64,000 bases of DNA from Candidatus Vogelbacteria bacterium (lineage in GTDB: Bacteria > Patescibacteriota > Minisyncoccia > Phycocordibacterales > XYD1-FULL-46-19), in the NCBI GenBank assembly GCA_903878275.1, contig CAIRHC010000006.1:15633-79632 (forward strand). The letters run 5' to 3'. Shown here piece by piece: positions 23,005 through 64,000 of the stretch (position 1 is the first letter of the stretch; every line of letters begins with the position of its first letter). Under the pieces are notes generated by a model. That model made no database searches. It was not told the DNA's origin and worked only from the letters and a program-made list of their open reading frames with translations. Both the position numbers and the translations under genes were made by a program.

Positions 23005-23033
23005 TTGACAAATAACTAAATTAGGTCTATAAT
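23005..23033 (+). promoter_or_regulatory. consensus sigma70 promoter (TTGACA-17nt-TATAAT)
   Basis: TTGACA at 23005-23010, 17-nt spacer, TATAAT at 23028-23033. Predicted TSS about 23040. Confidence 0.55.
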
Positions 23034-23040
23034 ATCACCA

Positions 23041-23202
23041 GAAGCTATTTGAAAGAAAAGGTCTGTGTCCTTCTCTGGTTGAGACTGCCCCGGCAAAGAC
23101 GAGGGGATTACGCTTACCAATTCGCTGTGAATTGGAAGCAAAAAACAATTTGCCCACGGGCACGGCTAGGGCTAGTCGTAACTCTACGGAAGGAGAAAAG
23201 CC
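23041..23202 (+). promoter_or_regulatory. GC-rich structured 5' leader (candidate cis-regulatory RNA / riboswitch-like)
   Basis: About 160 nt between the promoter and the ATG. Several perfect hairpins: CCAATTC-GCTGT-GAATTGG, TGCCC-ACG-GGGCA, CCCC...GGGG. Strong SD GGAAGGAG at its 3' end. Confidence 0.3.
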
Positions 23203-23775
23203 ATGAAGACAAATACTGCGAAGCTGTTGCACCAAACCGATTTAGAGTATGGACTTCCAGTCGGGGTCGAAGACCCTATTTCGCCAAGCGTAAATCGGGC
23301 TGAAGCTCTTAAAAAAGGCTTCCGGTTTGTCATCGGGAACGATTGCGGACCGAGCATTGGCATTCGCGAAAACGGAGCTCTCGTTCACACGAGCTGCGGC
23401 TCGTACAGGGAAGAGGATGGTCTCGAGTTTTTGCGGGCAAAAGCCCAGCAAATTGTCGAAGAATTTGGTCCCGGTGCCGTGAAGTGCCGAGGAACAAGAA
23501 TACCATCCGCTTCGTGCCCGATTTGGCAGCCCGCCATCTTGGAGTGGCAACCTCGCTACGAGACCAGTTTCTGTCGGAGCTTGGTCTCTCCAGAAACACC
23601 ACTTGGTGGTGGGGATACCCCCACGGGTTGGTACGAGGTCATCGAAATGGAGTTCTCCTCTCTAGAAGAAATGGCAAAAGCCGTTTCGAGTTGGGGAAGC
23701 GACTCCGAAGCCACAACGCCCGAAACTCTGAAGATTGCAGAGCTCCAAGTCGCGAAAGCTTACGCTTATCGCTAA
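23203..23775 (+). CDS. hypothetical Cys-containing 190-aa protein encoded in GC-rich island
   Basis: Strong SD with 7-nt spacing to the ATG. The stop lies 8 nt before the terminator stem. Sampled lines are about 55-58% GC, so all six frames are open here. No family recognised. Confidence 0.5.
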   Translation: MKTNTAKLLHQTDLEYGLPVGVEDPISPSVNRAEALKKGFRFVIGNDCGPSIGIRENGALVHTSCGSYREEDGLEFLRAKAQQIVEEFGPGAVKCRGTRIPSASCPIWQPAILEWQPRYETSFCRSLVSPETPLGGGDTPTGWYEVIEMEFSSLEEMAKAVSSWGSDSEATTPETLKIAELQVAKAYAYR

Positions 23776-40318: not shown

Positions 40319-42748
40319 ATGAATATGAACGATAAATATGATTTTAAAAATTCTGAACCAAACTGGCAAAAGTTTTGGGCGGAAAATAATGTCTACGGTT
40401 TCAATCCTGATTCCGACAAACCACTTTATACCATAGATACTCCGCCACCGACCGTTTCCGGCGCGATTCATCTTGGTCATATTTATTCATACACCCAAGC
40501 CGAGGTCATCGCTCGTTATCGTCGATTTCGTGGTTTTAATGTCCGCTATCCGTTTGGAATGGACAACAATGGCTTACCGACCGAACGTCTGGTTGAAAAA
40601 GAATTAAATATTAAAGGTAAAGACTCGAGCTTGAAAGATTTTACCGAAAAATGTTTAGCGACAACCGAAAAATACAAAATTGTTTACGAAGAATTGTGGC
40701 AATCGCTTGGTCTGTCGGTCGATTGGCGTTTGGAATATTCGACAATTTCCGAACCAGTCCAACTGTTAGTGCAGAAAGTTTTTAAAGATTTTTATGATCG
40801 CGGTTTGATTACGAGACAAGAAGCACCCGCCTTGTTTTGTTTTGAATGTGGCACATCAGTCGCCCAAGCCGAAGTGGAAGAAGATGAAAAAGAATCGGTT
40901 TTTTATGATTTAGCTTTTACCGACAAAGATGGGAAAACTTTAACCATCGCCACGACTAGACCAGAATTATTACCGGCCTGCTTAGCAATTTTTGTTCACC
41001 CGAATGATCTACGTTTCCGCGAATTAGTCGGCACAAATGCTACCACACCGATTGGCGATGTTGTACCAATTTTAACCGACGACAAAGTCGATATGGAAAA
41101 AGGTAGTGGGGCAGTGATGTGTTGCTCTTATGGTGACGAGACCGATGTGTATTGGGTTCGCGAGCACAAATTAAAAGAAAAATTGATTGTCGATAGAAAT
41201 GGTAAATTTAAAAAATTAGATAACGCACCAGATTTGCTGGGTTTAAATTTCGTTGATGGTCGCGCCAAGATTATTGAAAAACTAGAAACTGCCGGTAAAA
41301 TTTTAGCTAGTAAAAAAATCTCACACAATCTTGGCGTTCACGAACGCTGTGGCACACCGATTGAATATTTCACGACCGTCCAATGGTTTGTTAAAACTTT
41401 GCCGATTAAAAATGAAATTTTAGAGCAAGGTCAGAAAATAAATTGGTATCCGGCTTTTATGTACAAACGCTTTGAAGATTGGACGCTTGGTCTAAAATGG
41501 GATTGGTGCATTTCGCGCGAAAGGTTTTATGGTATTCCACTTCCAGCTTACACTTGCGACGACTGCGGTAAAATTTTTGTACCGGAAATTAAAGATAAAC
41601 CGATTGATCCACGACTTGAATCAATAGGGGATTTGACCTGCTCTTGTGGTAGCAAAAAACTTTCAGCTGACGGTAATGTGCTCGACACTTGGTTTACCTC
41701 GTCTTTAACCCCCGATATAAATAATGAATCCGATCTCAACGGAGCAATGAAAGGTAAGATGTTCCCATTATCTATGCGCCCACAAGCCCACGACATTATT
41801 CGCACTTGGGCGTTTTATACCATCGTAATGGCGTATTATCGCCACAAGGAGGTGCCTTGGCACGATCTGATGGTCTCCGGGCATATTCTCGCCAAGCAAG
41901 GGGTAAAAATCAGCAAAAAGACTGGTGGGGGCAAATATCAACCTGCCGAGCTTATCGCTGAACATTCCGCTGATGCGGTGCGCTATGTAATGTGTGGCGC
42001 CAAGCTCGGTCAAGATGCTTATTATGATGAAGCCGAAGTCGAAAAAGGTAAGAAATTGATCACCAAAATTTTCAATGCCGGCAAATTTGTTTTCAGCCAT
42101 CTTGAGGAAAATAAATTTAACAAGGAAACAAAACCGGCTGAAATTTACCCAACCGATACTTGGATTTTAGCCAAAGCCGAAAACGCAATGTCCGAAATGA
42201 TGAAGAGTCTTGATCAATATGACTTGATTATCGCTCGCCAAAGATTTGAAGAATTTTTCTGGACTGATTTTTGTGATAATTATTTAGAGCTAGTCAAAGG
42301 ACGACTTTATGGTGACAAAGAAAAGTCTGGTCACTCTTCAGCACTTTATACTTTGTATCACACTTATCTAAAAATTTTGCAAATGTTGGCGCCGTTTATG
42401 CCTCACATTACGGAAGAAATGTATCAAGCTTATTTCGCCAAACAAGAAAAAATAACCAGCCTTCATCAAATGATTTGGCTCGCGGAAAACTCCAAAGAAA
42501 AAAATAAAAATGATTTAGCTTGTTGGGAAACAACTTTGTCGTATATTTACGCGATGCGTCAAGAAAAAAACAAACTAAACTTGAGGCTGGGGGATAGTGT
42601 CGCAAAAATCATCATTTCTGGACTGGAAGAAAATAACAAAAAACTAGCGCTGGCAGCTGAAGATTTAAAAAATATTGCCAAAGCTCAAAACATCGAGTTC
42701 AAAAACCAACCCGAGACAATTTCGGTGATAATTGAGAAACAAGATTAA
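40319..42748 (+). CDS. valS: class Ia aminoacyl-tRNA synthetase, most likely valyl-tRNA synthetase (short form)
   Basis: TPPPTVSGAIHLGH (ValRS-type PPPN-TG/HIGH), CP1 editing TTRPELLPACLAIFVHPND, WCISRERFYGIPLP, KISKKTGG (KMSKS-like), DAVRYVMCG. IleRS is not excluded. Confidence 0.6.
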   Translation: MNMNDKYDFKNSEPNWQKFWAENNVYGFNPDSDKPLYTIDTPPPTVSGAIHLGHIYSYTQAEVIARYRRFRGFNVRYPFGMDNNGLPTERLVEKELNIKGKDSSLKDFTEKCLATTEKYKIVYEELWQSLGLSVDWRLEYSTISEPVQLLVQKVFKDFYDRGLITRQEAPALFCFECGTSVAQAEVEEDEKESVFYDLAFTDKDGKTLTIATTRPELLPACLAIFVHPNDLRFRELVGTNATTPIGDVVPILTDDKVDMEKGSGAVMCCSYGDETDVYWVREHKLKEKLIVDRNGKFKKLDNAPDLLGLNFVDGRAKIIEKLETAGKILASKKISHNLGVHERCGTPIEYFTTVQWFVKTLPIKNEILEQGQKINWYPAFMYKRFEDWTLGLKWDWCISRERFYGIPLPAYTCDDCGKIFVPEIKDKPIDPRLESIGDLTCSCGSKKLSADGNVLDTWFTSSLTPDINNESDLNGAMKGKMFPLSMRPQAHDIIRTWAFYTIVMAYYRHKEVPWHDLMVSGHILAKQGVKISKKTGGGKYQPAELIAEHSADAVRYVMCGAKLGQDAYYDEAEVEKGKKLITKIFNAGKFVFSHLEENKFNKETKPAEIYPTDTWILAKAENAMSEMMKSLDQYDLIIARQRFEEFFWTDFCDNYLELVKGRLYGDKEKSGHSSALYTLYHTYLKILQMLAPFMPHITEEMYQAYFAKQEKITSLHQMIWLAENSKEKNKNDLACWETTLSYIYAMRQEKNKLNLRLGDSVAKIIISGLEENNKKLALAAEDLKNIAKAQNIEFKNQPETISVIIEKQD

Positions 42749-43779
42749 TTTTTTTTAGCGAGATCTAAAACCTCGGTCAGAACCTTAATTAATTGGTTGT
42801 AGTTTTTAGCGCTTGGTACAGTTATTCTGACATATTTTTTAAGCCAAAATGGAGCATCAGGATAACGAGACAGATCTTTTACCCAAACATCTCGACTTTT
42901 TAAGTTTTCGCAAAATTCGCTAGTGTTAAAAAATTTAGCGGTCACGAAGTTGGCGTTACCTGGCAAGACGCTAATATTCCGACTTTTAAAAAACTCTATT
43001 AGTTTTTTTCTGATTTTTGCGACTTCTTCGATATAAGAAATGAGGACCTTCCCGTCTTTGTTTAGTAAATTATCGACTATTGAAATTGAAGCTTTATTTA
43101 TGTTGTAAATATCACCACGCATTTCTATTATTTTTTTTGCTAATTTCTCGTTAGTTATGATTAACCCTAATTTTAAACCACTTAAACCAACCTTGGAGAA
43201 AGAACGTAACACAATGAGATTGTTGTATTTTTTAACCAGGCTAATGACACTATACTTCTCGGAAACATAATCAGCATAAACCTCATCGATAACCACCAAA
43301 ATATTTTTTTGCTTGGCGGCTTTGATAATAATTTCAAGTTCGTTTGTGGTCGCAACAGACCCTAAAGGATTATTAGGATTAGCTAAGTAGACTAACTTTG
43401 TTTTTGACCGAAACACCGTAATAATTTTAGCGACTGGCAAAATACAATTTTCGGCATAACGGATTTTCTTAAACAAAAATTTACGATATTTTTCAAATTT
43501 ACCATAAAAAGCAAAGTTCGGAACTGGTATGACAATTTCTTCGCCGTCGTGAACAAAAAAATTAAAAATAATATCTAAAGCATGATAAGTTCCATTAACT
43601 AATACTAGATTGTTTGGAGATACAGAAAAATTTTGCGCTACCGAATTTATCAGGTTAGTGGTGTCAAAATTTCGAGCATATTGGCAAAAATTATCTGAAT
43701 TTAACCATTTTTTATGGCTAAAAAGGTTTATTTGCCCCTCGTTTAAATCTAATCTTAACTCTTTGGTGTTTTTTTGCAT
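42745..43779 (-). CDS. class I/II PLP-dependent aminotransferase (histidinol-phosphate aminotransferase-like)
   Basis: NPNNPLGS..., VIDEVYADYV, SFSKVGLSGLKLG (PLP-Lys motif). Confidence 0.75.
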   Translation of the reverse strand: MQKNTKELRLDLNEGQINLFSHKKWLNSDNFCQYARNFDTTNLINSVAQNFSVSPNNLVLVNGTYHALDIIFNFFVHDGEEIVIPVPNFAFYGKFEKYRKFLFKKIRYAENCILPVAKIITVFRSKTKLVYLANPNNPLGSVATTNELEIIIKAAKQKNILVVIDEVYADYVSEKYSVISLVKKYNNLIVLRSFSKVGLSGLKLGLIITNEKLAKKIIEMRGDIYNINKASISIVDNLLNKDGKVLISYIEEVAKIRKKLIEFFKSRNISVLPGNANFVTAKFFNTSEFCENLKSRDVWVKDLSRYPDAPFWLKKYVRITVPSAKNYNQLIKVLTEVLDLAKKN

Positions 43780-43815
43780 CGTGTTATTATATCACTAGTA
43801 AAAGGCAACTGTCTA

Positions 43816-43844
43816 TTGCGTTATTCTGTATTATATGGTATAAT
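43816..43844 (+). promoter_or_regulatory. sigma70-like promoter (TTGCGT-17-TATAAT) giving a near-leaderless transcript
   Basis: TATAAT at 43839-43844; the first plausible start codon, GTG 43852, is 7 nt downstream. Confidence 0.4.
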
Positions 43845-43851
43845 CAAAAAC

Positions 43852-45348
43852 GTGAATAATAGTAAGGATTCCGAAGCGATCAAAAAGCAATTGGCTTCGA
43901 AGAATAGCAAATTTTGGGACACCAGGAGAAAAATTGATTCTCTACGTCTTTTTCGTTTGGCTTCCAAAAATGTTTTAGCTTACCAGAAATTTCTTAAACG
44001 ACACAAAATTGATTCGACTCAAATTAAAGATTGTAAAGACTTCGCTAAAATTCCAGCAATTAGTAAAAAAAATTATCTAAGATATTATCCTTACCCAGAA
44101 CTTTTTTGGTCTGGCGAAACCGCAAAAAATGCTACTTATACCTCTACATCTGGTTCGACGGGTGAATCTTTTTATTTCCCAAGAGAATCAACTCTGGATT
44201 GGCAATCTTCGATTATTCACGAAAATTTTATCAATGGCTTCAGCAAAAAAGGAGAATCGGTTCTAGTTGTGGTAACTTTTGGAATGGGCGTCTGGATTGG
44301 GGGATTGATGACTTATCGCGCTTTCGAATATGTCCGAGACCGTAGCAACCGAAAAATCTCAATCATTACACCCGGTATAAATAAAAGTGAAATTTTTACA
44401 ACCTTGCAAAAATTATCGCCGATGTTTGACCACACCATAATTTGTGGTTATCCACCATTCGTTAAAGATGTTATTGACGAAGCGGAAACCTTAAAAATAA
44501 ATACTAAAAAATTAAATTTAAAATTTTCTTTCGCCGCCGAATCTTTTACTGAAAGTTATCGTGATTTTTTGAAAGAAAAAGTTGATCTTAAAAATAAATA
44601 TCTAGAAACAATCAGTATCTATGGTAGCGCCGATATCGGTGCTATGGCGTCGGAAACACCGCTTAGTATTCTAGTTAGAGAATTAGCGATCAAGGATAAA
44701 AAATTCTTTGAAAGTATCTTTGGGCAAATAAATAAAACGCCAACTTTAGCTCAATTTAATCCGTCTTTTATTAATTTCGAAGAAGTTGAAGGAGAGCTCT
44801 TACTCACTGGTAATAGCACGATTCCTTTGATCCGCTATGCACTTGGCGATAACGGCGGAGTTTTTACTTATGATCAGATTGTTGCCAAAGCAAAAAACTT
44901 TAATATAGATTTAGACAATTTAGTAAAAAAACTCGGCCTAAAAGATACGGTTTCCGAGTTACCGTTTGTTTATGTATACGAACGAAAAGATTTATCGACC
45001 ACTCTTTATGGATTAAATGTTTTTCCTGAATTTATAAAAGAAGCTCTCTTGCAACCAGAATTGCACAAATATTGTACTGGCAAGATGGCAATGTGTACCA
45101 AGTTTAACAAAAAACAAGACCAATTTTTAGAGATCAATGTGGAACTTAAAAAAAATGTTACCTCCAACCAAAATCTAGCTAAAAAAATTCAAAAAGTGGT
45201 TCTGTCTCATCTTCTAAAAAGAAGTTCGGAATATCGCGAATTATACAAATTTATTAAAAATCGGGCTTTGCCAAAAATTGTTTTGTGGTCAGCCGAAAAC
45301 CCCAAATATTTTCGTCCGGGTATTAAACAAAAGTGGGTAATAAAATAA
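43852..45348 (+). CDS. adenylate-forming enzyme of the phenylacetate-CoA ligase (PaaK/CapK, F390-synthetase) family
   Basis: YTSTSGSTGESFYFP (AMP-binding TSGTTG motif). Family-typical length. Confidence 0.65.
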   Translation: MNNSKDSEAIKKQLASKNSKFWDTRRKIDSLRLFRLASKNVLAYQKFLKRHKIDSTQIKDCKDFAKIPAISKKNYLRYYPYPELFWSGETAKNATYTSTSGSTGESFYFPRESTLDWQSSIIHENFINGFSKKGESVLVVVTFGMGVWIGGLMTYRAFEYVRDRSNRKISIITPGINKSEIFTTLQKLSPMFDHTIICGYPPFVKDVIDEAETLKINTKKLNLKFSFAAESFTESYRDFLKEKVDLKNKYLETISIYGSADIGAMASETPLSILVRELAIKDKKFFESIFGQINKTPTLAQFNPSFINFEEVEGELLLTGNSTIPLIRYALGDNGGVFTYDQIVAKAKNFNIDLDNLVKKLGLKDTVSELPFVYVYERKDLSTTLYGLNVFPEFIKEALLQPELHKYCTGKMAMCTKFNKKQDQFLEINVELKKNVTSNQNLAKKIQKVVLSHLLKRSSEYRELYKFIKNRALPKIVLWSAENPKYFRPGIKQKWVIK

Positions 45349-45396
45349 ACCTAAACAAATTTCCGCTTTTAGCTTTTTTACGGTAAGATTAAAATT

Positions 45397-46440
45397 ATGA
45401 AAGTAAATCTAGACAAAATGAGGCTAAAATTGGAAACGGAAGCCAACCTGTTTTTTGAGTTAGAAAAAATTGAGGATAAAATAAAATTTCTTTTACGTTT
45501 TGCCATCTTGGCACCATCAACCCACAACACCCAGCCCTGGCTTTTCAAGGTCACAGATAATTCTTGTTTAGTCTTCTTAAATCCTAAATTAAAACTAAAA
45601 TATGCCGATGCTAAAAATCGCGATATTTATATCAGCATTGGCTGTGCCATAGAAAATTTACTAATTGCTGCACAATATTATGGATTAGAGGGTAAAGTTA
45701 CTTACAAAGATTCAGAAGATAATCTCGTGGCAACCATATCGTTTAGTGAAAACATTGAAAAAAGAGAGTTGGAATCTTTAGAGAAAACAATTTTGTATCG
45801 CGTAAATTCTCGTGGTCCTTTTACTGATGAAAAAATTCCGGATATATTTCTAGAGCATCTAAACCAAATATTTTTAGAAAATCATGCTGAAAATGATATT
45901 CAAGTTCATTTTATAAAAGAAAAAAATGACGTTAAAAAAATTGCCGAGTTAACCCAGCTTGGGATGAAAATAGCTCATTCCAATAAAGATTTCCGACAAG
46001 AAATGTCTCGTTGGATAGTAAATAATTACACCAGACGCCGAGACGGTATGATCGGTTATTCGATGAATATGCCTGGACCGATTTCACTACTCGTGTCTAA
46101 AGTTGTCCGTTTTTTTAATATGGGGAAAATAATGGGCAAATTAAATTATATGAGCGTTTCATCGGCTCCCTTGATTTGTGTTTTTACCGCTCCGGACTTA
46201 AAAACTGAAACTTGGTTAAAAATCGGAAGACTCGTTGAGCGTTTAACTCTTGAGCTACAGAAAGAAAATTTCAGCACCTCAATTTATCTAGCTTCAGTAG
46301 AAATGGGAGATTTGTATAAGGAAATTCAAAATATTTTAAAAACTTCGAGTTTACCTCAATTTGTTTTTGCTTCAGGTTTTATGGATAAAACTTTTAAAAC
46401 TACGCCGAGGCACGAACTGGAAGAAAAATTATTAAATTAA
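45397..46440 (+). CDS. two-domain nitroreductase-superfamily (SagB-type dehydrogenase-like) FMN protein
   Basis: AILAPSTHNTQPWLFKV is the nitroreductase signature. 347 aa suggests a tandem nitroreductase fold. Confidence 0.65.
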   Translation: MKVNLDKMRLKLETEANLFFELEKIEDKIKFLLRFAILAPSTHNTQPWLFKVTDNSCLVFLNPKLKLKYADAKNRDIYISIGCAIENLLIAAQYYGLEGKVTYKDSEDNLVATISFSENIEKRELESLEKTILYRVNSRGPFTDEKIPDIFLEHLNQIFLENHAENDIQVHFIKEKNDVKKIAELTQLGMKIAHSNKDFRQEMSRWIVNNYTRRRDGMIGYSMNMPGPISLLVSKVVRFFNMGKIMGKLNYMSVSSAPLICVFTAPDLKTETWLKIGRLVERLTLELQKENFSTSIYLASVEMGDLYKEIQNILKTSSLPQFVFASGFMDKTFKTTPRHELEEKLLN

Positions 46441-46443
46441 ATT

Positions 46444-47550
46444 ATGGATAAAAAATTAGACAACTATTTAAAAAGTGTAACGATTGAATCTGACAGTCAG
46501 CCTGTTTTTTTTGATTTAAAAAACCAAGATGACCAACAAAAATTACTTAGTCTGTTTGAATTAAATAAAATTAAAAAAGTTATCGATAATTACGGTGAAC
46601 AGAATGGGGAACTAGCTTTAGTAAATAATCCGCCACTGATTGCTATTAAAAAAGAAAACTCTACAGTTAGCGAGGGTGTAGAAGATCCAGAAAAAGGTTT
46701 GTGGATTTATTTCCCGTGGAAAGATACTTTAGTCCATTCGCTCGACAAAGAAGATTACGAAAAATTACGTTTGTCTCGAAATAATAACCTTATTAGCCCA
46801 TCGCAACAAGAAAAAATAAAAGCTTTAAGAATCGGTCTGGCGGGATTAAATGTTGGTAATCCCGGCGCTATTTCTTTGATTCAAGAAGGCGTTCAAAAAT
46901 TGAAAATGGCAGATTTAGATATTTTATCTTTATCTAATCTTAATCGCTTCCGAGCTGGATTGCCCGATGTCGAGCTTGATAAAACAATCATTACCGCCAG
47001 GCAAATCTATGAAATAAATCCTTTTGCCGAACTAGAGTTATACAGTAAAGGCATTCAGTCAGATAATATCGACAAATTTCTGCTTGAACCTAAAATCGAT
47101 TTACTCATAGAAGAAATGGATAATTTAAAGCTCAAAATTGCGATTAGAGAAAAAGCTAAGCAATTTAAAATACCGGTGTTAATGGTGACTGGTAATGGAT
47201 CTAATATTATAATTGATATTGAACGTTATGATTTGGATGAAAATATTCCACTTCTTAATGGCTACCTAAAACCTGAAATTATTGAGCAAATAAGTAAAGT
47301 TGTTCCGACCACCGATCTGCGTGAAAAAATGTCTCTCGCTCGAGATTTTATGGGTAAAGAATATTTAGTTAAAGAATTACGCGAATCTTTTGATCGCGTC
47401 GGTATAGATTTGGCGGGTATTCCACAATTAGCTGAAGCAACTTTTTTCCGTGGAGCAACTCTTGCTTATTTTACTCGTCGTATCGCCGTGGATAAAGATA
47501 TTCCTTCCGGACGGTATCTTCTAGAAGTGGATAAACTCAAGTTAGTTTAA
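46444..47550 (+). CDS. E1-like (ThiF/MoeB-family) adenylyltransferase domain protein
   Basis: Rossmann IGLAGLNVGNPGAISLIQEGV; DLDILSLSNLNRF (E1 DxDxVxxSNLNRQ motif). Confidence 0.65.
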   Translation: MDKKLDNYLKSVTIESDSQPVFFDLKNQDDQQKLLSLFELNKIKKVIDNYGEQNGELALVNNPPLIAIKKENSTVSEGVEDPEKGLWIYFPWKDTLVHSLDKEDYEKLRLSRNNNLISPSQQEKIKALRIGLAGLNVGNPGAISLIQEGVQKLKMADLDILSLSNLNRFRAGLPDVELDKTIITARQIYEINPFAELELYSKGIQSDNIDKFLLEPKIDLLIEEMDNLKLKIAIREKAKQFKIPVLMVTGNGSNIIIDIERYDLDENIPLLNGYLKPEIIEQISKVVPTTDLREKMSLARDFMGKEYLVKELRESFDRVGIDLAGIPQLAEATFFRGATLAYFTRRIAVDKDIPSGRYLLEVDKLKLV

Positions 47551-47588
47551 ATTAGCCAAAAATCTCCCAGATCTGCTATAATATTCTT

Positions 47589-49238
47589 ATGGTGATTAGT
47601 AACGTTGATTTATTTTTGACAATTATTCCAAGTTTTTTGATAGCTTATTTAGGTATCATTATTTTATTTCACGGACGAAAAAGCGTTACTAATATTTTTT
47701 TTGCTTTAATTAGTTTTTGTACTGTTTTTTGGTCCATCGCTAATTATCTTTCAATCAGCTCTCCTGATGATCAAACTTTATTTTGGACAAGGCTAGTCCT
47801 TTTTTTCGCTGTTCCTCACGCTCTACTTTTTTTGTTATTTGTCTACAACTTTCCAGCAACTAAAATTACCAATCGAAAATTTTTGACTATTTTATTATCA
47901 ATTATGATAATAACGATGCTCGCAACGGTGTCACCCTTTGTTTTTTCTGGTATAAATTTTGTTGACGGCAAAACTATTCCCCAGACAGGAATCTTGATTC
48001 CAATTTTTGCCTTGGTTGTCCTTGGTTCTTTGTTTTCCGCTCTTTATTTAATTATTAAAAAATATTTAACCGCCAACAAAGACGATAAGGAGCACTGGCG
48101 CGTTATGCTAATCGGCACAGCATTAAGTTATATTTTTATTATCGCGACAAATTTTATTTTAGTTGTTTTTTACCAAGATACTTCTTATCTGAAATTTGGA
48201 CCATTGTTTATGCTACCGACAATTATCGGAATGGGTTATGCTATTCTGCGCTACCAGCTATTAAACGTAAAAGCTATTGCCACAGAAATTTTAACCTTGG
48301 TCATTTTGTCTATTTCTGTTGTTGAAGCTTATTTATCACAGACAAGTTTAGAATTGGCAATGAGATTAATCATTTTTGTTTTTTATGCTATTTTTGGAAT
48401 ATTAATTATTCGTAGTGTTTTAAAAGAAGTTGAACAACGCCAACACATCGAAAAATTAGCGGGTGATTTAGCTTTAACCAACAACCAATTAAAATTTGCA
48501 AACGACAAACTTAAAGAAATTGACCGACAAAAAACTGAATTTGTGTCTATTGCTTCTCACCAGCTTCGCAGCCCACTGACTGCGATTAAGGGCTATTCAT
48601 CAATGCTTCTCGAGGGATCTTTTGGTGATTTTCCCGAAAAAGCACATAATGCGGTTGAGCGAATTTCGGAATCTAGCCAAAAATTGGTTACCGTCATCGA
48701 AGACTTTTTGAATGTCACCCGCATCGAACTTGGCAAAATGAATTACGAGTTAAGCAACTTTGATATTGGTAAGTTAGCCGAACAGGTCATTGGAGAAATC
48801 AAACCAAACATCGAAAAACGTGGTTTGACCATTTCTTACGAAACCGATGGTAACGATCACACCATAAACGCCGATCCTGGTAAAATTAGTCAGGTAATTT
48901 CTAATATTATTGATAATGCTTCCAAATATACCAAAGAAGGCTGGGTAAAAGTCCGCGTTGAAAATTTGAAAAAGACCAACAAAAGCAAGTCTGATACAAT
49001 ACGAATCACCGTAAAAGATAGCGGTATCGGTATTGATAAAAAAAATATCACTCGATTGTTTGAAAAATTCATCCGTGCCGATGACGCCGGCAAAACCAAC
49101 ATCCTCGGCACCGGTCTTGGTCTTTATGTCGCCAAACAGATGGTCGAAGGACTGGGCGGTAAAATCTGGGCAGAGTCAGAAGGTCTCGACAAAGGCTCAA
49201 CTTTCATTGTCGAATTTAAACAAGCCAAAACCAAATAA
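47589..49238 (+). CDS. membrane-integral sensor histidine kinase
   Basis: About 7 N-terminal TM helices. H-box FVSIASHQLRSPLTAI, N/G boxes, GTGLGLYVAKQMVEGLGG. Confidence 0.85.
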   Translation: MVISNVDLFLTIIPSFLIAYLGIIILFHGRKSVTNIFFALISFCTVFWSIANYLSISSPDDQTLFWTRLVLFFAVPHALLFLLFVYNFPATKITNRKFLTILLSIMIITMLATVSPFVFSGINFVDGKTIPQTGILIPIFALVVLGSLFSALYLIIKKYLTANKDDKEHWRVMLIGTALSYIFIIATNFILVVFYQDTSYLKFGPLFMLPTIIGMGYAILRYQLLNVKAIATEILTLVILSISVVEAYLSQTSLELAMRLIIFVFYAIFGILIIRSVLKEVEQRQHIEKLAGDLALTNNQLKFANDKLKEIDRQKTEFVSIASHQLRSPLTAIKGYSSMLLEGSFGDFPEKAHNAVERISESSQKLVTVIEDFLNVTRIELGKMNYELSNFDIGKLAEQVIGEIKPNIEKRGLTISYETDGNDHTINADPGKISQVISNIIDNASKYTKEGWVKVRVENLKKTNKSKSDTIRITVKDSGIGIDKKNITRLFEKFIRADDAGKTNILGTGLGLYVAKQMVEGLGGKIWAESEGLDKGSTFIVEFKQAKTK

Positions 49239-62077: not shown

Positions 62078-62205
62078 AATTGAATTAATTTGATCAGACC
62101 CCTACTCTTATTTTTAAAAAATTTCAAAAAATAATCGGCTCAATTTAGTTTTTGAGTGGTACGTTAGTATTACTTAAATTTAACCTGAAGCCATTTTGGA
62201 GGTTT

Positions 62206-62256
62206 ACCCTGTTAAATAAATTTGTAAACAAATTTAGCTTTGCTATTTAACAGGGT
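62206..62256. repeat. nested perfect hairpin (13-bp outer stem ACCCTGTTAAATA/TATTTAACAGGGT enclosing AAATTTGT-AAA-CAAATTT)
   Basis: Read directly from the sequence. Confidence 0.6.
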
Positions 62257-62768
62257 CAAAATTTTGCCAAATTTACGGATTTTAGCCAAATCAACAAAAT
62301 CGCTATTTTTGAGTTTTTTAATAAAAAGGGAACTAGGGATTTAATAATTTTTGGTAAAATTTTTTCAGAAAAATAGTAACATAAGTTAAGAGAGGATTTA
62401 AAATGAAAAAAATATTTTTAAAATTTACATCAAGAGAGGAGAGCGGGGCTATATCGCAAGCACCCTTGTCCGACATTTTTTAAATGATTGCAAAAAGTTC
62501 GATTTTGCAACATTAGCCCTACGGGCTATGTCGCAAAATCTATGTTGTGCGACATACTGTAAGTTATCCACAAGCCCTCCCCTCAAGCAATTCACCCAGC
62601 GAGCTTTGACAGTCTCATTAATTTATTTTTAAAAAAATTCTCCTAAAAAATCCGCGGGCTTCTCTTTTAATTATCCGGATTTTTTTGGAGAAAAAATTGT
62701 TCATTCATTTTTAACAGATCAAAAATAAGCCCCCTACCCCCTCTTCAGCTATCCACAGTTTTGGTTGG

Positions 62769-62796
62769 TTGACAAAATTTTCTAAAGTTGTATGAT
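62769..62796 (+). promoter_or_regulatory. sigma70 promoter (TTGACA-16nt-TATGAT)
   Basis: TTGACA 62769-62774, TATGAT 62791-62796, upstream of the microprotein cassette. Confidence 0.5.
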
Positions 62797-62810
62797 TATT
62801 TTTGGACATA

Positions 62811-62830
62811 GACAGTCAGTGTAGACTGTC
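62811..62830 (+). promoter_or_regulatory. perfect palindrome GACAGTC-agtgta-GACTGTC between -10 and SD (candidate operator)
   Basis: 7-bp inverted repeat with 6-nt spacer, positioned at +8 to +27 of the predicted transcript. Confidence 0.4.
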
Positions 62831-62865
62831 AGCACATCCAAAGTCAAAAAACGGAGGAATAAAAA

Positions 62866-63039
62866 ATGTGTGAATATGCTTGCCCAGTAAAAAAAGAAGT
62901 CTGTCAAAACTGCCCCGAACACGGGAAGTCCCCACGGTCACGAGGACGAACCACGGAAAAAGGACGCTCCATACAAGAAGCAGACAACCTCCTCTTATAC
63001 AGACAAAAGCAAGCACTGCTCACAACACAAAGAGTCTAG
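62866..63039 (+). CDS. Cys-rich microprotein A (57 aa, C-x3-C-x6-C-x2-C)
   Basis: Unlisted ORF MCEYACPVKKEVCQNCPEHGKSPRSRGRTTEKGRSIQEADNLLLYRQKQALLTTQRV with a GGAGG SD 9 nt upstream. Confidence 0.4.
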   Translation: MCEYACPVKKEVCQNCPEHGKSPRSRGRTTEKGRSIQEADNLLLYRQKQALLTTQRV

Positions 63040-63077
63040 TTTTCCATCTAACCCTAACAAAAAGGAGAAAAAGAAAG

Positions 63078-63197
63078 ATGGGTTGTAGTTTAGGTTGTGA
63101 TGTCCCCGCGAGCGTCTGTGACAATTGCGAGGAAAAACTTTGGCGGAGAATAAACCGTATCGATGAGAAGGAGGTTGAAAAAACTTCCGACCAATGA
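63078..63197 (+). CDS. Cys-rich microprotein B (39 aa, paralog of A, same C-x3-C-x6-C-x2-C spacing)
   Basis: MGCSLGCDVPASVCDNCEEKLWRRINRIDEKEVEKTSDQ with an AGGAGA SD about 10 nt upstream. The listed 105-aa ORF 62880-63197 is a TTG-initiated read-through of this frame. Confidence 0.4.
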   Translation: MGCSLGCDVPASVCDNCEEKLWRRINRIDEKEVEKTSDQ

Positions 63198-63220
63198 TCG
63201 GTTTAAATTTGCCGACAAAA

Positions 63221-63259
63221 ACCGGTGGACACTTGCAAGTGACCACCGGTAATTTTTTT
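63221..63259. terminator. bidirectional intrinsic terminator (30-nt near-perfect palindrome ACCGGTGG..CCACCGGT flanked by A-run and T-run)
   Basis: Read directly; followed by a second 11-bp hairpin at 63262-63294. Confidence 0.7.
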
Positions 63260-63303
63260 ACCTACCTAAGTATGCGGTCGCACACTTAGGTAGGTCACAT
63301 CAG

Positions 63304-63738
63304 CTATTCTCCAGAAACAGCACTGCAACCGCTTGCCAAAGTATAACCTTTTGCCTTAGCTTCGGCTTCGGTCAAAACTAGGCGATTTGAAGCCTTGATT
63401 GTCTTGGCACCGGGACACCATGGAAAATGATATTTTTTGCCCCGACTAGACACAATGACCGAGCCCATTTGATATTCAGGAGTTGCCACTTCCGCCACGA
63501 CATTTGTCGCCTCTTTGGTCGCAGTCGGTTCCGCGACAGAAGGAATATCGGCTTCTGCCGTGCTGGTAGCCAAAGCATTCTCGATCCGAATCGGCACTTT
63601 TGCCTCCTCTATTTTTGACAACCGCCCGAGCCCAAACGCCAAGAGCGCCACAATGACCAGCAATAGGCCGAAAAACATCTCCTTTTCGTTAGCCAAGAAA
63701 AAATCCTTTACTTTTCCGCTATTTTCTTTTATACTCAT
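63304..63738 (-). CDS. membrane-anchored protein with C-terminal Ada-like Cys4 zinc-binding motif domain
   Basis: Start at the internal ATG (MSIKENSG...). TM FFGLLLVIVALLAFGLG. C-terminal KKYHFPWCPGAKTIKASNRLVLTEAEAKAKGYTLASGCSA resembles the Ada metal-binding domain pattern (YCRPSCPA...N..F..EA.AAGFRPCKRC). Confidence 0.5.
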   Translation of the reverse strand: MSIKENSGKVKDFFLANEKEMFFGLLLVIVALLAFGLGRLSKIEEAKVPIRIENALATSTAEADIPSVAEPTATKEATNVVAEVATPEYQMGSVIVSSRGKKYHFPWCPGAKTIKASNRLVLTEAEAKAKGYTLASGCSAVSGE

Positions 63739-63779
63739 AAGGTAAAATTCATTAGATATTTTAACATTAAATAACCAAT

Positions 63780-64000
63780 ATGGCACATAGAAAAGCTGGC
63801 GGTACCGCCAAAAACTTAAGAGATTCCCAACCAAAGTACCTCGGTACAAAGCTTTATGATGGCGAAATTGCTCGAGTTGGTAGCATTATTGTCCGCCAGC
63901 GAGGCACCGTCATCAAGGCTGGCAAAAATGTCAAAGTTGGCAAAGATCACACTTTGTTCGCGGTCAAAGAAGGCAAAGTAAAATTCGGTTCAGCCAAAAA
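63780..64000 (+). CDS. rpmA: 50S ribosomal protein L27 (3' end beyond window)
   Basis: [43 protein letters not shown]... matches the L27 consensus. Confidence 0.85.

What the first reader, a model, noticed from the sequence alone, without database searches (positions are those of the whole stretch)
62769..63262. Self-contained cassette: strong promoter, palindromic operator, two paralogous Cys-rich microproteins (57 and 39 aa, C-x3-C-x6-C-x2-C) and a bidirectional terminator
Neither ORF is in the automated track as a unit. Both have strong SDs. They share the motif VC(Q/D)NC(P/E)E and identical Cys spacing, so they are tandem paralogs. They are driven by TTGACA-16-TATGAT, with a perfect 7-6-7 palindrome (GACAGTCagtgtaGACTGTC) overlapping the transcript start, and closed by a 30-nt palindromic terminator. 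Candidates include zinc-ribbon regulators, metal-binding peptides, toxin/immunity-like peptides or RiPP precursors. A lysozyme-like gene and M23 peptidases lie nearby.
Basis: seen in the sequence. Interest (0 to 1): 0.6.

Follow-up and report, generated by a model that had tools for sequence, protein, structure and literature searches.

The report
Conserved orphan four-cysteine microprotein gene pair
A tiny self-contained gene unit in an uncultured Parcubacteria/Vogelbacteria-like genome really does encode two related four-cysteine mini-proteins; the same unit, with one copy, is kept in two related genomes, so it is a genuine but narrowly distributed new small-protein family of unknown function, most likely metal-binding.

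Summary
The promoter and palindrome are not beyond chance on their own; conservation makes the unit credible. No relative turned up in protein, viral or phage searches, nor among 27 genomic loci fetched around gltX. Anchoring on the neighbouring gene recovered two syntenic loci (neighbour protein 70-72% identical), L031 and L029/L030. They have the same promoter, a 5'-UTR stem-loop, an SD-like motif, a 59-61 aa ORF starting MC-x3-C-x-V-x3-VC-x2-C, and a terminator. In the 17-codon motif block all 14 invariant nucleotide columns lie at codon positions 1-2 and none at position 3 (p≈0.001). Cys and Val codons vary synonymously, so selection acts on the protein. The competing 105-aa frame is closed in both orthologous loci. 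ORF1 is the conserved gene; ORF2 is a window-specific, shorter, acidic paralog. The "operator" keeps pairing through compensatory and G·U changes, which fits an RNA stem-loop better than a DNA operator. No known family matches. The best reading is a fast-evolving Cys4 (probably Zn) knuckle with a charged tail; its function is untested. A conserved dif-like site lies 240 bp upstream.

The parts
62769..62796 (+). Sigma-70-type promoter: TTGACA, 16-nt spacer, TATGAT
   Evidence: It matches 11/12 consensus positions. The -35 hexamer, the 16-nt spacer and the flanking bases are conserved in L031 (TTGACA-16-TATGAT) and in L029/L030 (TTGACA-16-TACCAT). Activity has not been tested.
62811..62830 (+).
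   Evidence: All 21 pair cells across three loci form standard pairs. Two of the seven pairs covary, each with three pair types including G·U. RNAalifold predicts the same helix independently on four sequences. A strain SNP between L029 and L030 keeps the pairing as G·U.
62853..62857 (+). SD-like GGAGG, 8 nt upstream of the ORF1 ATG
   Evidence: Read from the sequence. Orthologs have AAGGAG 9 nt upstream (L031) and GGGAG 9 nt upstream (L029). Such motifs are rare in this genome: 1 of 40 long genes has one.
62866..63039 (+). ORF1: 57-aa basic microprotein (pI 9.3), MCEYACPVKKEVCQNCPE followed by a K/R-rich tail. This is the conserved member of the family.
   Evidence: Orthologs of 59 aa (L031) and 61 aa (L029/L030) occupy the same syntenic position with identical Cys spacing. 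Conservation has codon periodicity, p = 0.0011. The 61-aa ortholog is an independently called gene on a Logan contig.
63063..63067 (+). SD-like AGGAG, 10 nt upstream of the ORF2 ATG
   Evidence: Read from the sequence. It is one of only 7 SD-plus-ATG sites in the window.
63078..63197 (+). ORF2: 39-aa acidic paralog (pI 4.6), MGCSLGCDVPASVCDNCEE followed by a short predicted helix. It is specific to the window lineage.
   Evidence: It is 42% identical to ORF1 over 31 aa, E = 7e-5. It shares the invariant C, C, V, V, C, C residues with the orthologs. AlphaFold2 single-sequence pLDDT is 77.5, with a short hairpin and a helix at residues 11-25. L029 and L031 have no ORF2 counterpart.
63221..63259 (+). 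Intrinsic terminator: 30-nt near-palindrome followed by T7, preceded by A5
   Evidence: It folds at -26.3 kcal/mol, z = -5.3, with 0 of 200 shuffles folding as well. L029 and L031 have terminator hairpins of unrelated sequence at the same place.

Best explanation
This is an independently transcribed small-protein gene unit belonging to a narrow clade of Vogelbacteria-like Parcubacteria.

Inferred expression. A conserved sigma-70-type promoter makes an mRNA of about 450 nt. The mRNA begins a few bases before a conserved 5' stem-loop, which probably stabilises the transcript or regulates it. It ends at an intrinsic terminator. Two cistrons are translated from SD-like sites: ORF1 (57 aa, basic) and its shorter acidic duplicate ORF2 (39 aa).

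Shown. The 16-17 N-terminal residues of each peptide carry four invariant cysteines in the pattern M-C-x3-C-x-V-x3-V-C-x2-C-x-E/D. These are held by purifying selection while the rest of the protein evolves fast. The unit, the ORF and the motif are all conserved in related genomes, and the 5' stem is maintained by covariation.

Inferred function. The four cysteines most likely chelate one metal ion, probably Zn(II). That would fold a minimal knuckle-plus-helix module, and the flexible Gly-rich linker and K/R/E-rich tail would then contact a partner such as nucleic acid, the ribosome or another protein. Transcription, translation, metal binding and the partner are all untested.
For: Conservation of the unit. 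Using the neighbouring gene as anchor, two syntenic loci were recovered: L029/L030 (Candidatus Vogelbacteria, neighbour protein 72% identical) and L031 (70%). At the same position, convergent with that neighbour gene, both carry the same -35 hexamer and 16-nt spacer, a 5' stem-loop, an SD-like motif, an ORF of 59-61 aa starting MC and a terminator.

Coding signature. In the 17-codon motif block of the four sequences, all 14 invariant nucleotide columns are at codon positions 1 or 2 and none at position 3, p = 0.0011. Every Cys codon alternates between TGT and TGC. One invariant Val uses all four codons (GTA, GTG, GTT, GTC). Pairwise differences are 11-13 of 17 at position 3 against 5-9 at positions 1 and 2.

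Open frame kept. ORF length (57, 59, 61 aa) is retained although protein identity is only 22-38%. The overlapping 105-aa frame is closed in the orthologs.

Motif rarity. The spacing occurs only at these two ORFs in the whole window.

Translation signals. SD-like motifs sit 8-10 nt upstream in all four family members, in a genome where they are otherwise nearly absent.

Structure. AlphaFold2 places C14 and C17 of ORF2 near the N-terminal end of the predicted helix 11-25, with C3 and C7 in the preceding hairpin (pLDDT 77.5).

Sequence leads. The only weak similarities are to zinc knuckles of small Cys-containing ribosomal proteins: bL28 at E = 0.006 for the family profile and bL32 at E = 0.64 for L029 alone.

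Independent gene call. The 61-aa ortholog was called as a gene on a Logan contig.
Against: - Codon usage of both ORFs falls below the 5th percentile of real genes in this window.
- There is no expression or proteomic evidence.
- The family has only four sequences from three lineages.
- No homolog was found in any protein, structure or family library.
- The unit is absent once the neighbour protein drops to 57% identity or less. The positional analogue in L015 encodes a different, basic 54-aa ORF without the Cys4 motif.
- About half of Parcubacteria lack the anti-SD sequence (PMC9297842). The 16S rRNA gene is not in the window, so the SD-like motifs may not act as true SDs.
- The ORF1 structure model is of low confidence (pLDDT 62.5).
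- C-x3-C is an unusual first zinc knuckle, and predicted Cys4 microproteins do not always bind zinc (PMC11241148).
Confidence: 0.6

Rival explanations
1. The functional product is the RNA, either a small RNA or a purely regulatory transcript, and the ORFs are incidental.
For: The promoter and 5' stem-loop region is the best conserved part of the unit, with mean column identity 76%. Protein identity is much lower, 22-38%. Codon usage is atypical. The positional analogue in L015 keeps a promoter, hairpin and terminator but encodes a different ORF.
Against: Conservation in the motif block has period 3: 0 of 14 invariant columns lie at codon position 3, p = 0.0011. Cys and Val codons are swapped synonymously. 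An open frame of 57-61 codons starting with MC is retained in all lineages despite near-saturated divergence. No Rfam family matches.
Confidence: 0.1
2. The peptides are precursors of modified or disulfide-crosslinked exported peptides, either RiPPs or bacteriocin/toxin-like. The conserved cysteines would form thioethers, thiazoles or disulfides rather than bind a metal.
For: A conserved Cys framework with fast-evolving intervening residues is typical of such peptides (the generalisation is from my own knowledge). The unit is strongly expressed and self-contained. A low-GC island 15 kb upstream (43.8-47.5 kb) encodes a PaaK-like ligase, an FMN oxidoreductase and a ThiF-like enzyme.
Against: No radical-SAM, YcaO, lanthipeptide-type or transporter gene lies within about 5 kb in the window or in L029. 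The cysteines start at residue 2-3, so there is neither a leader nor a signal peptide. The peptides are very hydrophilic (GRAVY -0.8 to -1.0). No NCBIfam precursor model hits. The ThiF and oxidoreductase genes match the Rv1355c and Acg families, not TOMM enzymes.
Confidence: 0.1
3. The 7-6-7 palindrome is a DNA operator for a dimeric repressor, rather than an RNA stem-loop.
For: It is a perfect palindrome at about +7 to +27, a classic roadblock position. L031 also has a perfect palindrome, 9-6-9, at the same place.
Against: L029 and L030 keep pairing only through G·U wobbles, two in L029 and three in L030. At the DNA level these break the symmetry. The half-site sequence itself changes between genomes (GACAGTC, GACTATC, GACTGTC). 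No second copy of the site exists in the window. No regulator gene is adjacent. With three or four sequences the covariation is not statistically decisive: 118 of 500 shuffles do as well.
Confidence: 0.2
4. The real product is the 105-aa TTG-initiated frame (62880-63197), or an antisense ORF (83 aa, 62995-63246 on the minus strand).
For: The 105-aa frame is open in the window and contains ORF2 in frame.
Against: The equivalent frame has 6 stops in L031 and 5 in L029. Its N-terminal 66 codons score -0.45 for coding. It has no SD or family match. The exact sequence is absent from the protein collection. The antisense ORF runs through the terminator and has no promoter.
Confidence: 0.02

Closest known systems
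One-domain zinc-finger µ-proteins of Haloferax/Halobacterium (C(P)XCG proteins, e.g. HVO_0758, Brz) and the cyanobacterial four-Cys small protein NblD
   Same: All are stand-alone proteins under 70 aa whose only recognisable feature is four cysteines in two short knuckles. They are often unannotated, and they act by binding partners rather than by catalysis (PMC11241148, PMC10716476, PMC2253796, PMC7865187).
   Different: The motif here is C-x3-C-x6-C-x2-C at the extreme N-terminus. It is not two C(P)XCG knuckles separated by 10 or more residues. There is no detectable sequence homology, the host is a bacterial CPR lineage, and zinc binding is untested. Several predicted archaeal members do not bind zinc.
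Cys-containing (C+) forms of the small ribosomal proteins bL28 and bL32
   Same: These give the only sequence similarity found, and it is weak: a 'VC-x2-C-G/E-x-G' knuckle followed by a Gly-rich loop and a basic segment. The family profile matches mycobacterial bL28 at E = 0.006 over 25 residues, and L029 alone matches bL32 at E = 0.64. Size (57-61 aa) and basic charge are similar. The unit lies next to rpmA and rplI.
   Different: No hit to the Pfam L28 or L32 models. The bL28 signature after the knuckle (VSHS...R...PN in the chains aligned) is absent. The second Cys pair is N-terminal here rather than C-terminal. The family evolves far faster than ribosomal proteins and is confined to a few genomes.
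Treble-clef and zinc-knuckle mini-domains in general
   Same: The predicted layout for ORF2 is two ligands in a short hairpin and two at or near the N-terminal end of the predicted helix 11-25.

Membership tests
C(P)XCG zinc-finger µ-proteins (Haloferax type) | Protein shorter than 70 aa | tested here: met
   The four peptides are 57, 39, 59 and 61 aa.
C(P)XCG zinc-finger µ-proteins (Haloferax type) | Two C(P)XCG motifs | tested here: not met
   The first pair is C-x3-C. The second is C-x2-C followed by P/A/G/E, with a G after it only in L029 (CRACG).
C(P)XCG zinc-finger µ-proteins (Haloferax type) | Stoichiometric zinc binding | not testable with these tools
   This needs purified peptide and metal analysis.
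Zinc ribbon (two C-x2-C knuckles on beta-hairpins) | Two C-x2-C (C-x2-4-C) knuckles separated by a beta-hairpin-forming spacer, and an HMM match | tested here: not met
   The spacing is C-x3-C-x6-C-x2-C. No Pfam or NCBIfam zinc-ribbon model reaches its cut-off; the best are a YgiT finger at 15.4 bits against a 20.2 cut-off and an Mcm10 zinc motif at 16.3 against 26.8. The model shows a hairpin plus a helix.
Ribosomal protein bL28 / bL32 | Match to the family HMM at the gathering score | tested here: not met
   Pfam found nothing at E ≤ 1 for any of the four peptides. There is only a 25-residue local similarity to PDB bL28 chains, E = 0.006 for the profile and 0.8 for a single sequence.
RiPP precursor (ranthipeptide/SCIFF, TOMM, lanthipeptide) | A maturase gene (radical SAM, YcaO or LanM-type) adjacent | tested here: not met
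   The neighbours in the window are murG, gltX, an M23 peptidase, a 94-aa gene and an SLT-like gene upstream, with the 'sunset' gene and rpmA downstream. In L029, rplI and an S41 protease follow rpmA.
RiPP precursor (ranthipeptide/SCIFF, TOMM, lanthipeptide) | N-terminal leader followed by a Cys-rich C-terminal core, with a match to a precursor model | tested here: not met
   The cysteines are at residues 2-17. No NCBIfam precursor model hits.
Type I toxin / small membrane peptide | Hydrophobic transmembrane segment | tested here: not met
   GRAVY is -0.79 to -1.01 and there is no hydrophobic stretch.
Rho-independent terminator | GC-rich hairpin followed by a U-run | tested here: met
   The stem at 63221-63250 is followed by T7. 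It folds at -26.3 kcal/mol, z = -5.3.
Chromosomal dif site (adjacent element at 62528-62555, not part of the cassette) | 28-bp site with two 11-bp arms and a 6-bp centre, single copy, at the GC-skew switch | tested here: met
   The site reads ATGTCGCAAAA-TCTATG-TTGTGCGACAT. It is unique in the window, with 0.01 expected by chance. It is conserved at the syntenic spot in seven other loci, weakly in L016. GC skew is more negative to the right of the site than to the left in all eight loci.
Chromosomal dif site (adjacent element at 62528-62555, not part of the cassette) | A cognate Xer recombinase in the genome, and recombination activity | not tested
   Only part of the window's ORFs were scanned, and none was a tyrosine recombinase. 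The rest of the genome is not available.

The most novel reading that the evidence does not exclude
The ORF1-type protein is a lineage-specific, fast-evolving zinc-knuckle protein that associates with the ribosome or with rRNA. It would be a replacement or add-on in a group whose ribosomes have lost small proteins such as bL28, bL32 and bL33 in a lineage-specific way (PMC9297842). It would be expressed from one of the very few SD-led mRNAs in an otherwise SD-less genome. ORF2 would be an acidic, tail-less competitor or regulator of it.
Probability: 0.08. Interest if true: 0.7.

Novelty: new member of a known kind. Interest (0 to 1): 0.42.

Why it matters
Small Cys4 proteins are a recognised but poorly charted class, and none has been described in CPR bacteria in the literature I searched. 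This family is invisible to homology searches and was found only through synteny. It shows clear protein-level selection. It comes with an unusually complete and conserved set of expression signals in a genome that otherwise lacks Shine-Dalgarno sites. That makes it a clean test case for three questions: whether such lineages still use SD-dependent initiation, what 5' stem-loops do in CPR mRNAs, and what minimal metal-binding peptides do in ultra-small symbionts. The scope is narrow, three lineages so far, and the function is unknown, so the immediate impact is modest.

Tried and rejected
Searches that found nothing.
- Exact look-ups of ORF1, ORF2, the 105-aa frame, the SLT-like protein, GltX and the 100%-identical sunset protein P0002 found no record. 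The source contig could not be retrieved.
- Word-indexed searches of 5.8 billion proteins with ORF1 and ORF2 found no candidate.
- An HMMER profile of ORF1 plus ORF2 against 1.84 billion representatives gave one hit I judge spurious, to a 1235-aa protein matched in six stretches.
- A tblastn-type scan with ORF1 found nothing in genome contigs. In metagenome contigs it gave only one spurious high-GC match without the Cys motif (L001).
- Viral contigs gave nothing. A degenerate motif scan there gave six chance hits in junk frames. Phage blastn gave nothing.
- Pfam, PHROGs, NCBIfam, PADLOC and PDB sequence searches gave nothing significant.
- Rfam gave nothing in the region.

Ideas considered and dropped.
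- oriC. Prompted by a TTATCCACA box, but DnaA boxes are not enriched, and gene orientation and GC skew indicate a terminus instead.
- Cys-sensing leader peptide. There is no downstream gene before the terminator.
- Lipoprotein. 'SLGC' is not a lipobox in register and there is no signal peptide.
- TOMM-type RiPP cluster at 43-47 kb. There is no YcaO, and the enzymes match the Rv1355c and Acg families.
- bL28 membership. There is only a 25-residue knuckle similarity.
Full report
**1. Observation**

Reading 62400-64000 confirms every element at the stated coordinates.
- Promoter: TTGACA (62769-62774), 16-nt spacer, TATGAT (62791-62796). It matches 11/12 consensus positions and is the best promoter-like site in 61.5-64 kb.
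- Palindrome: perfect GACAGTC-N6-GACTGTC at 62811-62830, unique in the window.
- ORF1: 62866-63039, 57 aa, MCEYACPVKKEVCQNCPE..., with GGAGG 8 nt upstream.
- ORF2: 63078-63197, 39 aa, MGCSLGCDVPASVCDNCEE..., with AGGAG 10 nt upstream.
- Terminator: 30-nt near-palindrome at 63221-63250 followed by T7. It folds at -26.3 kcal/mol, z = -5.3.

The spacing C-x3-C-x6-C-x2-C occurs exactly twice in a six-frame translation of the whole 64 kb, and both hits are these ORFs. It occurs five times, in junk frames, in about 480 kb of unrelated loci. ORF1 against ORF2 gives BLASTP E = 7e-5.

Taken alone, the promoter and palindrome are not beyond chance. There are five promoter matches of 11/12 or better against 3.5 expected, and 80 perfect 7-nt inverted repeats against about 43 expected. 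The ORFs also have poor codon-usage scores, -0.18 and -0.03 against 0.33 ± 0.135 for genes of this window.

**2. Is it conserved?**

Direct searches with the peptides found nothing.
- No Pfam, PHROG, NCBIfam, PADLOC or PDB match.
- No word-sharing candidate among 5.8 billion proteins.
- One spurious hit among 1.84 billion representatives.
- Nothing in GTDB species genomes, viral contigs or phages.
- One spurious high-GC match in metagenome contigs.

Anchoring on gltX fetched 27 loci. The nearest are Paceibacterota, Vogelbacteria or Zambryskibacteria MAGs (several labelled Saccharibacteria in their records) with only 48-59% GltX identity. Synteny is widely kept: mraY-ftsW-murG-gltX-M23-p94-SLT-...-'sunset' gene (minus strand)-rpmA. 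None of these loci carries the Cys ORFs.

The decisive step used the immediately adjacent gene as anchor. This is a membrane-anchored protein with an Ada-like 'sunset' C-terminal domain. Its closest relatives are 70-72% identical and lie on L029/L030 and L031.
- L029 is Candidatus Vogelbacteria, GCA_026395015.1. L030 is an independent Logan sample of the same type.
- L031 is from JGI sample 3300014204.

Both loci have a unit at the same position, convergent with the sunset gene. It consists of:
- GTTGACAAAAT...AGTTGTA(TG/CC)AT, that is the same -35 hexamer and a 16-nt spacer;
- a stem-loop;
- an SD-like motif (AAGGAG 9 nt upstream, or GGGAG 9 nt upstream);
- an ORF: MCEMQCKVPLSVCLICAEGGGSGKTP... 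(59 aa) or MCNMNCRVSRDVCRACGDGNGG... (61 aa);
- a terminator.

The 61-aa form is a called gene on a Logan contig. Each of these loci has one Cys ORF, not two. Loci whose sunset protein is 57% identical or less lack the unit.

**3. Coding or not?**

Aligning the 17-codon motif block of the four sequences gives 14 invariant nucleotide columns. Seven are at codon position 1, seven at position 2 and none at position 3 (hypergeometric p = 0.0011).
- Each of the four Cys codons alternates between TGT and TGC.
- The invariant Val codons read GTA/GTG/GTT/GTC and GTC/GTA/GTA/GTC.
- Pairwise differences are 11-13 of 17 at position 3, against 5-9 at positions 1 and 2.

Outside the seven invariant residues the sequences are near saturation, with protein identity 22-38%. 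Even so, an open frame of 57-61 codons starting MC is kept. The frame equivalent to the window's 105-aa TTG ORF has 6 stops in L031 and 5 in L029, so that rival is excluded. I conclude that selection acts on a translated peptide and specifically on M, C, C, V, V, C, C and an acidic residue. Poor codon usage remains a caveat, but it is not surprising for a short, Cys-, Lys- and Arg-rich, fast-evolving gene.

**4. The 'operator'**

Across the window, L031 and L029 the seven stem pairs are all standard pairs (21 of 21 cells). Sliding the partner by one to three columns drops pairing to 21-48%. Two pairs each show three types, A-U/U-A/U·G and A-U/G-C/G·U.

RNAalifold on four sequences predicts the same helix. 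The only two non-coding SNPs between the near-identical L029 and L030 fall in this hairpin: one changes A-U to G·U and the other is in the loop.

G·U pairs are meaningful only in the sense-strand RNA, and at the DNA level L029 and L030 are no longer symmetric. With so few sequences the statistics are weak, since 118 of 500 shuffles do as well. On balance I read the element as a 5'-UTR stem-loop starting about 7 nt after the predicted start site, either a stabiliser or a regulatory hairpin. I keep a DNA operator as a rival at about 0.2.

**5. SD context**

Of 40 long genes in the window, one has a 5-mer SD. Leaders are A/T-rich and depleted in G, and several have a TATAAT box 5-15 nt before the ATG, which suggests leaderless or short-leader mRNAs. 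Only seven (GGAGG or AGGAG)-N4-11-ATG sites exist on both strands, and two of them serve ORF1 and ORF2. All four family members have such a motif 8-10 nt upstream.

Tsurumaki et al. report that about half of Parcubacteria lack the anti-SD motif (PMC9297842). The 16S rRNA gene is not in the window, so whether these motifs work as true SDs is open. Their conserved position suggests that they matter.

**6. What the protein may do**

ORF1-type members have three parts: the Cys4 block, a Gly-rich linker (EHGKSP, EGGGSGKTP, DGNGGA) and a basic tail. Overall pI is 9.3-10.0, with a shared ERKGR-x-IQE-like patch. ORF2 is truncated and acidic, pI 4.6.

AlphaFold2, run on single sequences, gives ORF2 a pLDDT of 77.5 with a short hairpin (C3, C7) and a helix at residues 11-25, with C14 and C17 near its N-terminal end. 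ORF1 is of low confidence, pLDDT 62.5, with a C-terminal helix. Foldseek against PDB found no neighbour.

The family profile's best PDB hits are zinc knuckles of small ribosomal proteins: mycobacterial bL28 at E = 0.006 over 25 residues, and for L029 alone bL32 at E = 0.64. I treat these as leads for 'zinc knuckle plus basic tail', not as membership, because the Pfam L28 and L32 models do not match.

No maturase, transporter or regulator gene is adjacent in any of the loci. The peptides are hydrophilic and have neither a leader nor a signal peptide. RiPP, toxin and lipoprotein readings are therefore disfavoured.

My committed model is a Zn(II)-organised (Cys4) mini-domain presenting a charged tail to a partner. 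Probabilities:
- About 0.8 that the peptides are real.
- About 0.5-0.6 that they bind metal.
- About 0.25 or less for any specific partner class.

**7. Comparison and novelty**

Functionally the closest analogues are the one-domain zinc-finger µ-proteins of haloarchaea and similar four-Cys small proteins (PMC11241148, PMC10716476, PMC2253796, PMC7865187). The defining C(P)XCG motifs are not present, so this is not a member of that family. It is a new, orphan family of the same general kind, so far restricted to three related CPR lineages, with a tandem duplicate in the window genome.

**8. Surroundings**

About 240 bp upstream lies a 28-bp site with 11-6-11 architecture, ATGTCGCAAAA-TCTATG-TTGTGCGACAT (62528-62555).
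- It is unique in the window.
- It is conserved, with 0-5 mismatches, at the syntenic position in L003, L005, L009, L015, L018 and L029, and weakly in L016.
- GC skew is more negative to the right of the site than to the left in all eight loci, and in most it changes sign there.
- Gene orientation flips there as well.

This is the expected signature of a chromosomal dif site at the replication terminus. The content between this site and the sunset gene varies among genomes. It is nothing in L009, a different small basic ORF unit in L015, about 1.1 kb carrying unrelated ORFs in L018, and the Cys cassette here. That fits a variable terminus-proximal slot. I found no evidence that the cassette itself is a mobile element.

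Noticed in passing
window 62528-62555 (also L015 13850-13877, L018 18056-18083, L029 3442-3415 on the minus strand, L003 11401, L005 20313, L009 13052): A conserved 28-bp site with 11-6-11 architecture, ATGTCGCAAAA-TCTATG-TTGTGCGACAT. It is unique in the window and sits where the GC skew drops and gene orientation switches in all eight loci. It is a probable chromosomal dif (Xer) site at the replication terminus. A TTATCCACA box and a CCCTCCCC tract follow it.
   Followed up: partly
window 62100-62800: About 650 bp of non-coding DNA is 81% identical to L029, whereas the adjacent 'sunset' protein is only 72% identical at the amino-acid level. It contains nested palindromes (62203-62259, ACCCTGTTAAATA...TATTTAACAGGGT, with an inner AAATTTGT-AA-ACAAATTT). 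It also holds two further dif-like or degenerate palindromes at 62448-62476 and 62489-62513. Its function is unknown; possibilities include Xer accessory sequences, a non-coding RNA or protein-binding sites.
   Followed up: partly
whole window (gene starts listed): The genome essentially lacks Shine-Dalgarno sites: 1 of 40 long genes has one. Leaders are A/T-rich and G-depleted, and several genes have a TATAAT box 5-15 nt before the ATG, suggesting leaderless or very short-leader mRNAs. This is consistent with the reported loss of the anti-SD sequence in part of the Parcubacteria (PMC9297842).
   Followed up: partly
L015 13930-14260: This is the positional analogue of the cassette in the nearest GTDB genome. 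It has TTGACA-17-TATACT, a different 5' hairpin (CCTGAAC/GTTCAGG), a purine-rich leader, a 54-aa very basic ORF (MSRKKKRKDSPVPQK..., annotated in NCBI) and a terminator. It has no Cys4 motif.
   Followed up: partly
window 63260-63295: A second stem-loop (17-nt arms, 94% complementary; about -27 kcal/mol, z = -7.9) lies between the cassette terminator and the end of the sunset gene. It has no U-run on either strand, so it is not a canonical terminator. Its loop region (GGTCGCACA) loosely resembles a dif arm.
   Followed up: no
window 42000-48000: A low-GC island (GC 0.334-0.338, against 0.40 for the window). It encodes a PaaK-like adenylate-forming ligase (43774-45348), an Acg-family FMN oxidoreductase (45397-46440), a ThiF-like protein matching the N-terminal part of Rv1355c (46444-47550) and a 7TM histidine kinase (47589-49238). 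No YcaO or radical-SAM gene is present.
   Followed up: partly
window 23005-23775: The only perfect 12/12 promoter match in the window (TTGACA-17-TATAAT at 23005). It precedes a leader of about 170 nt and the only long gene with a canonical SD (GGAAGGAG, ATG at 23203). That gene encodes 190 aa and has no Pfam match.
   Followed up: no
L029 3956-4180 (minus strand): An extra 74-aa gene, with its own promoter-like site and a strong SD (GGAAGAGGAGG), is inserted between the SLT-like gene and the conserved non-coding region in L029. It is absent from the window and has no Pfam match.
   Followed up: no
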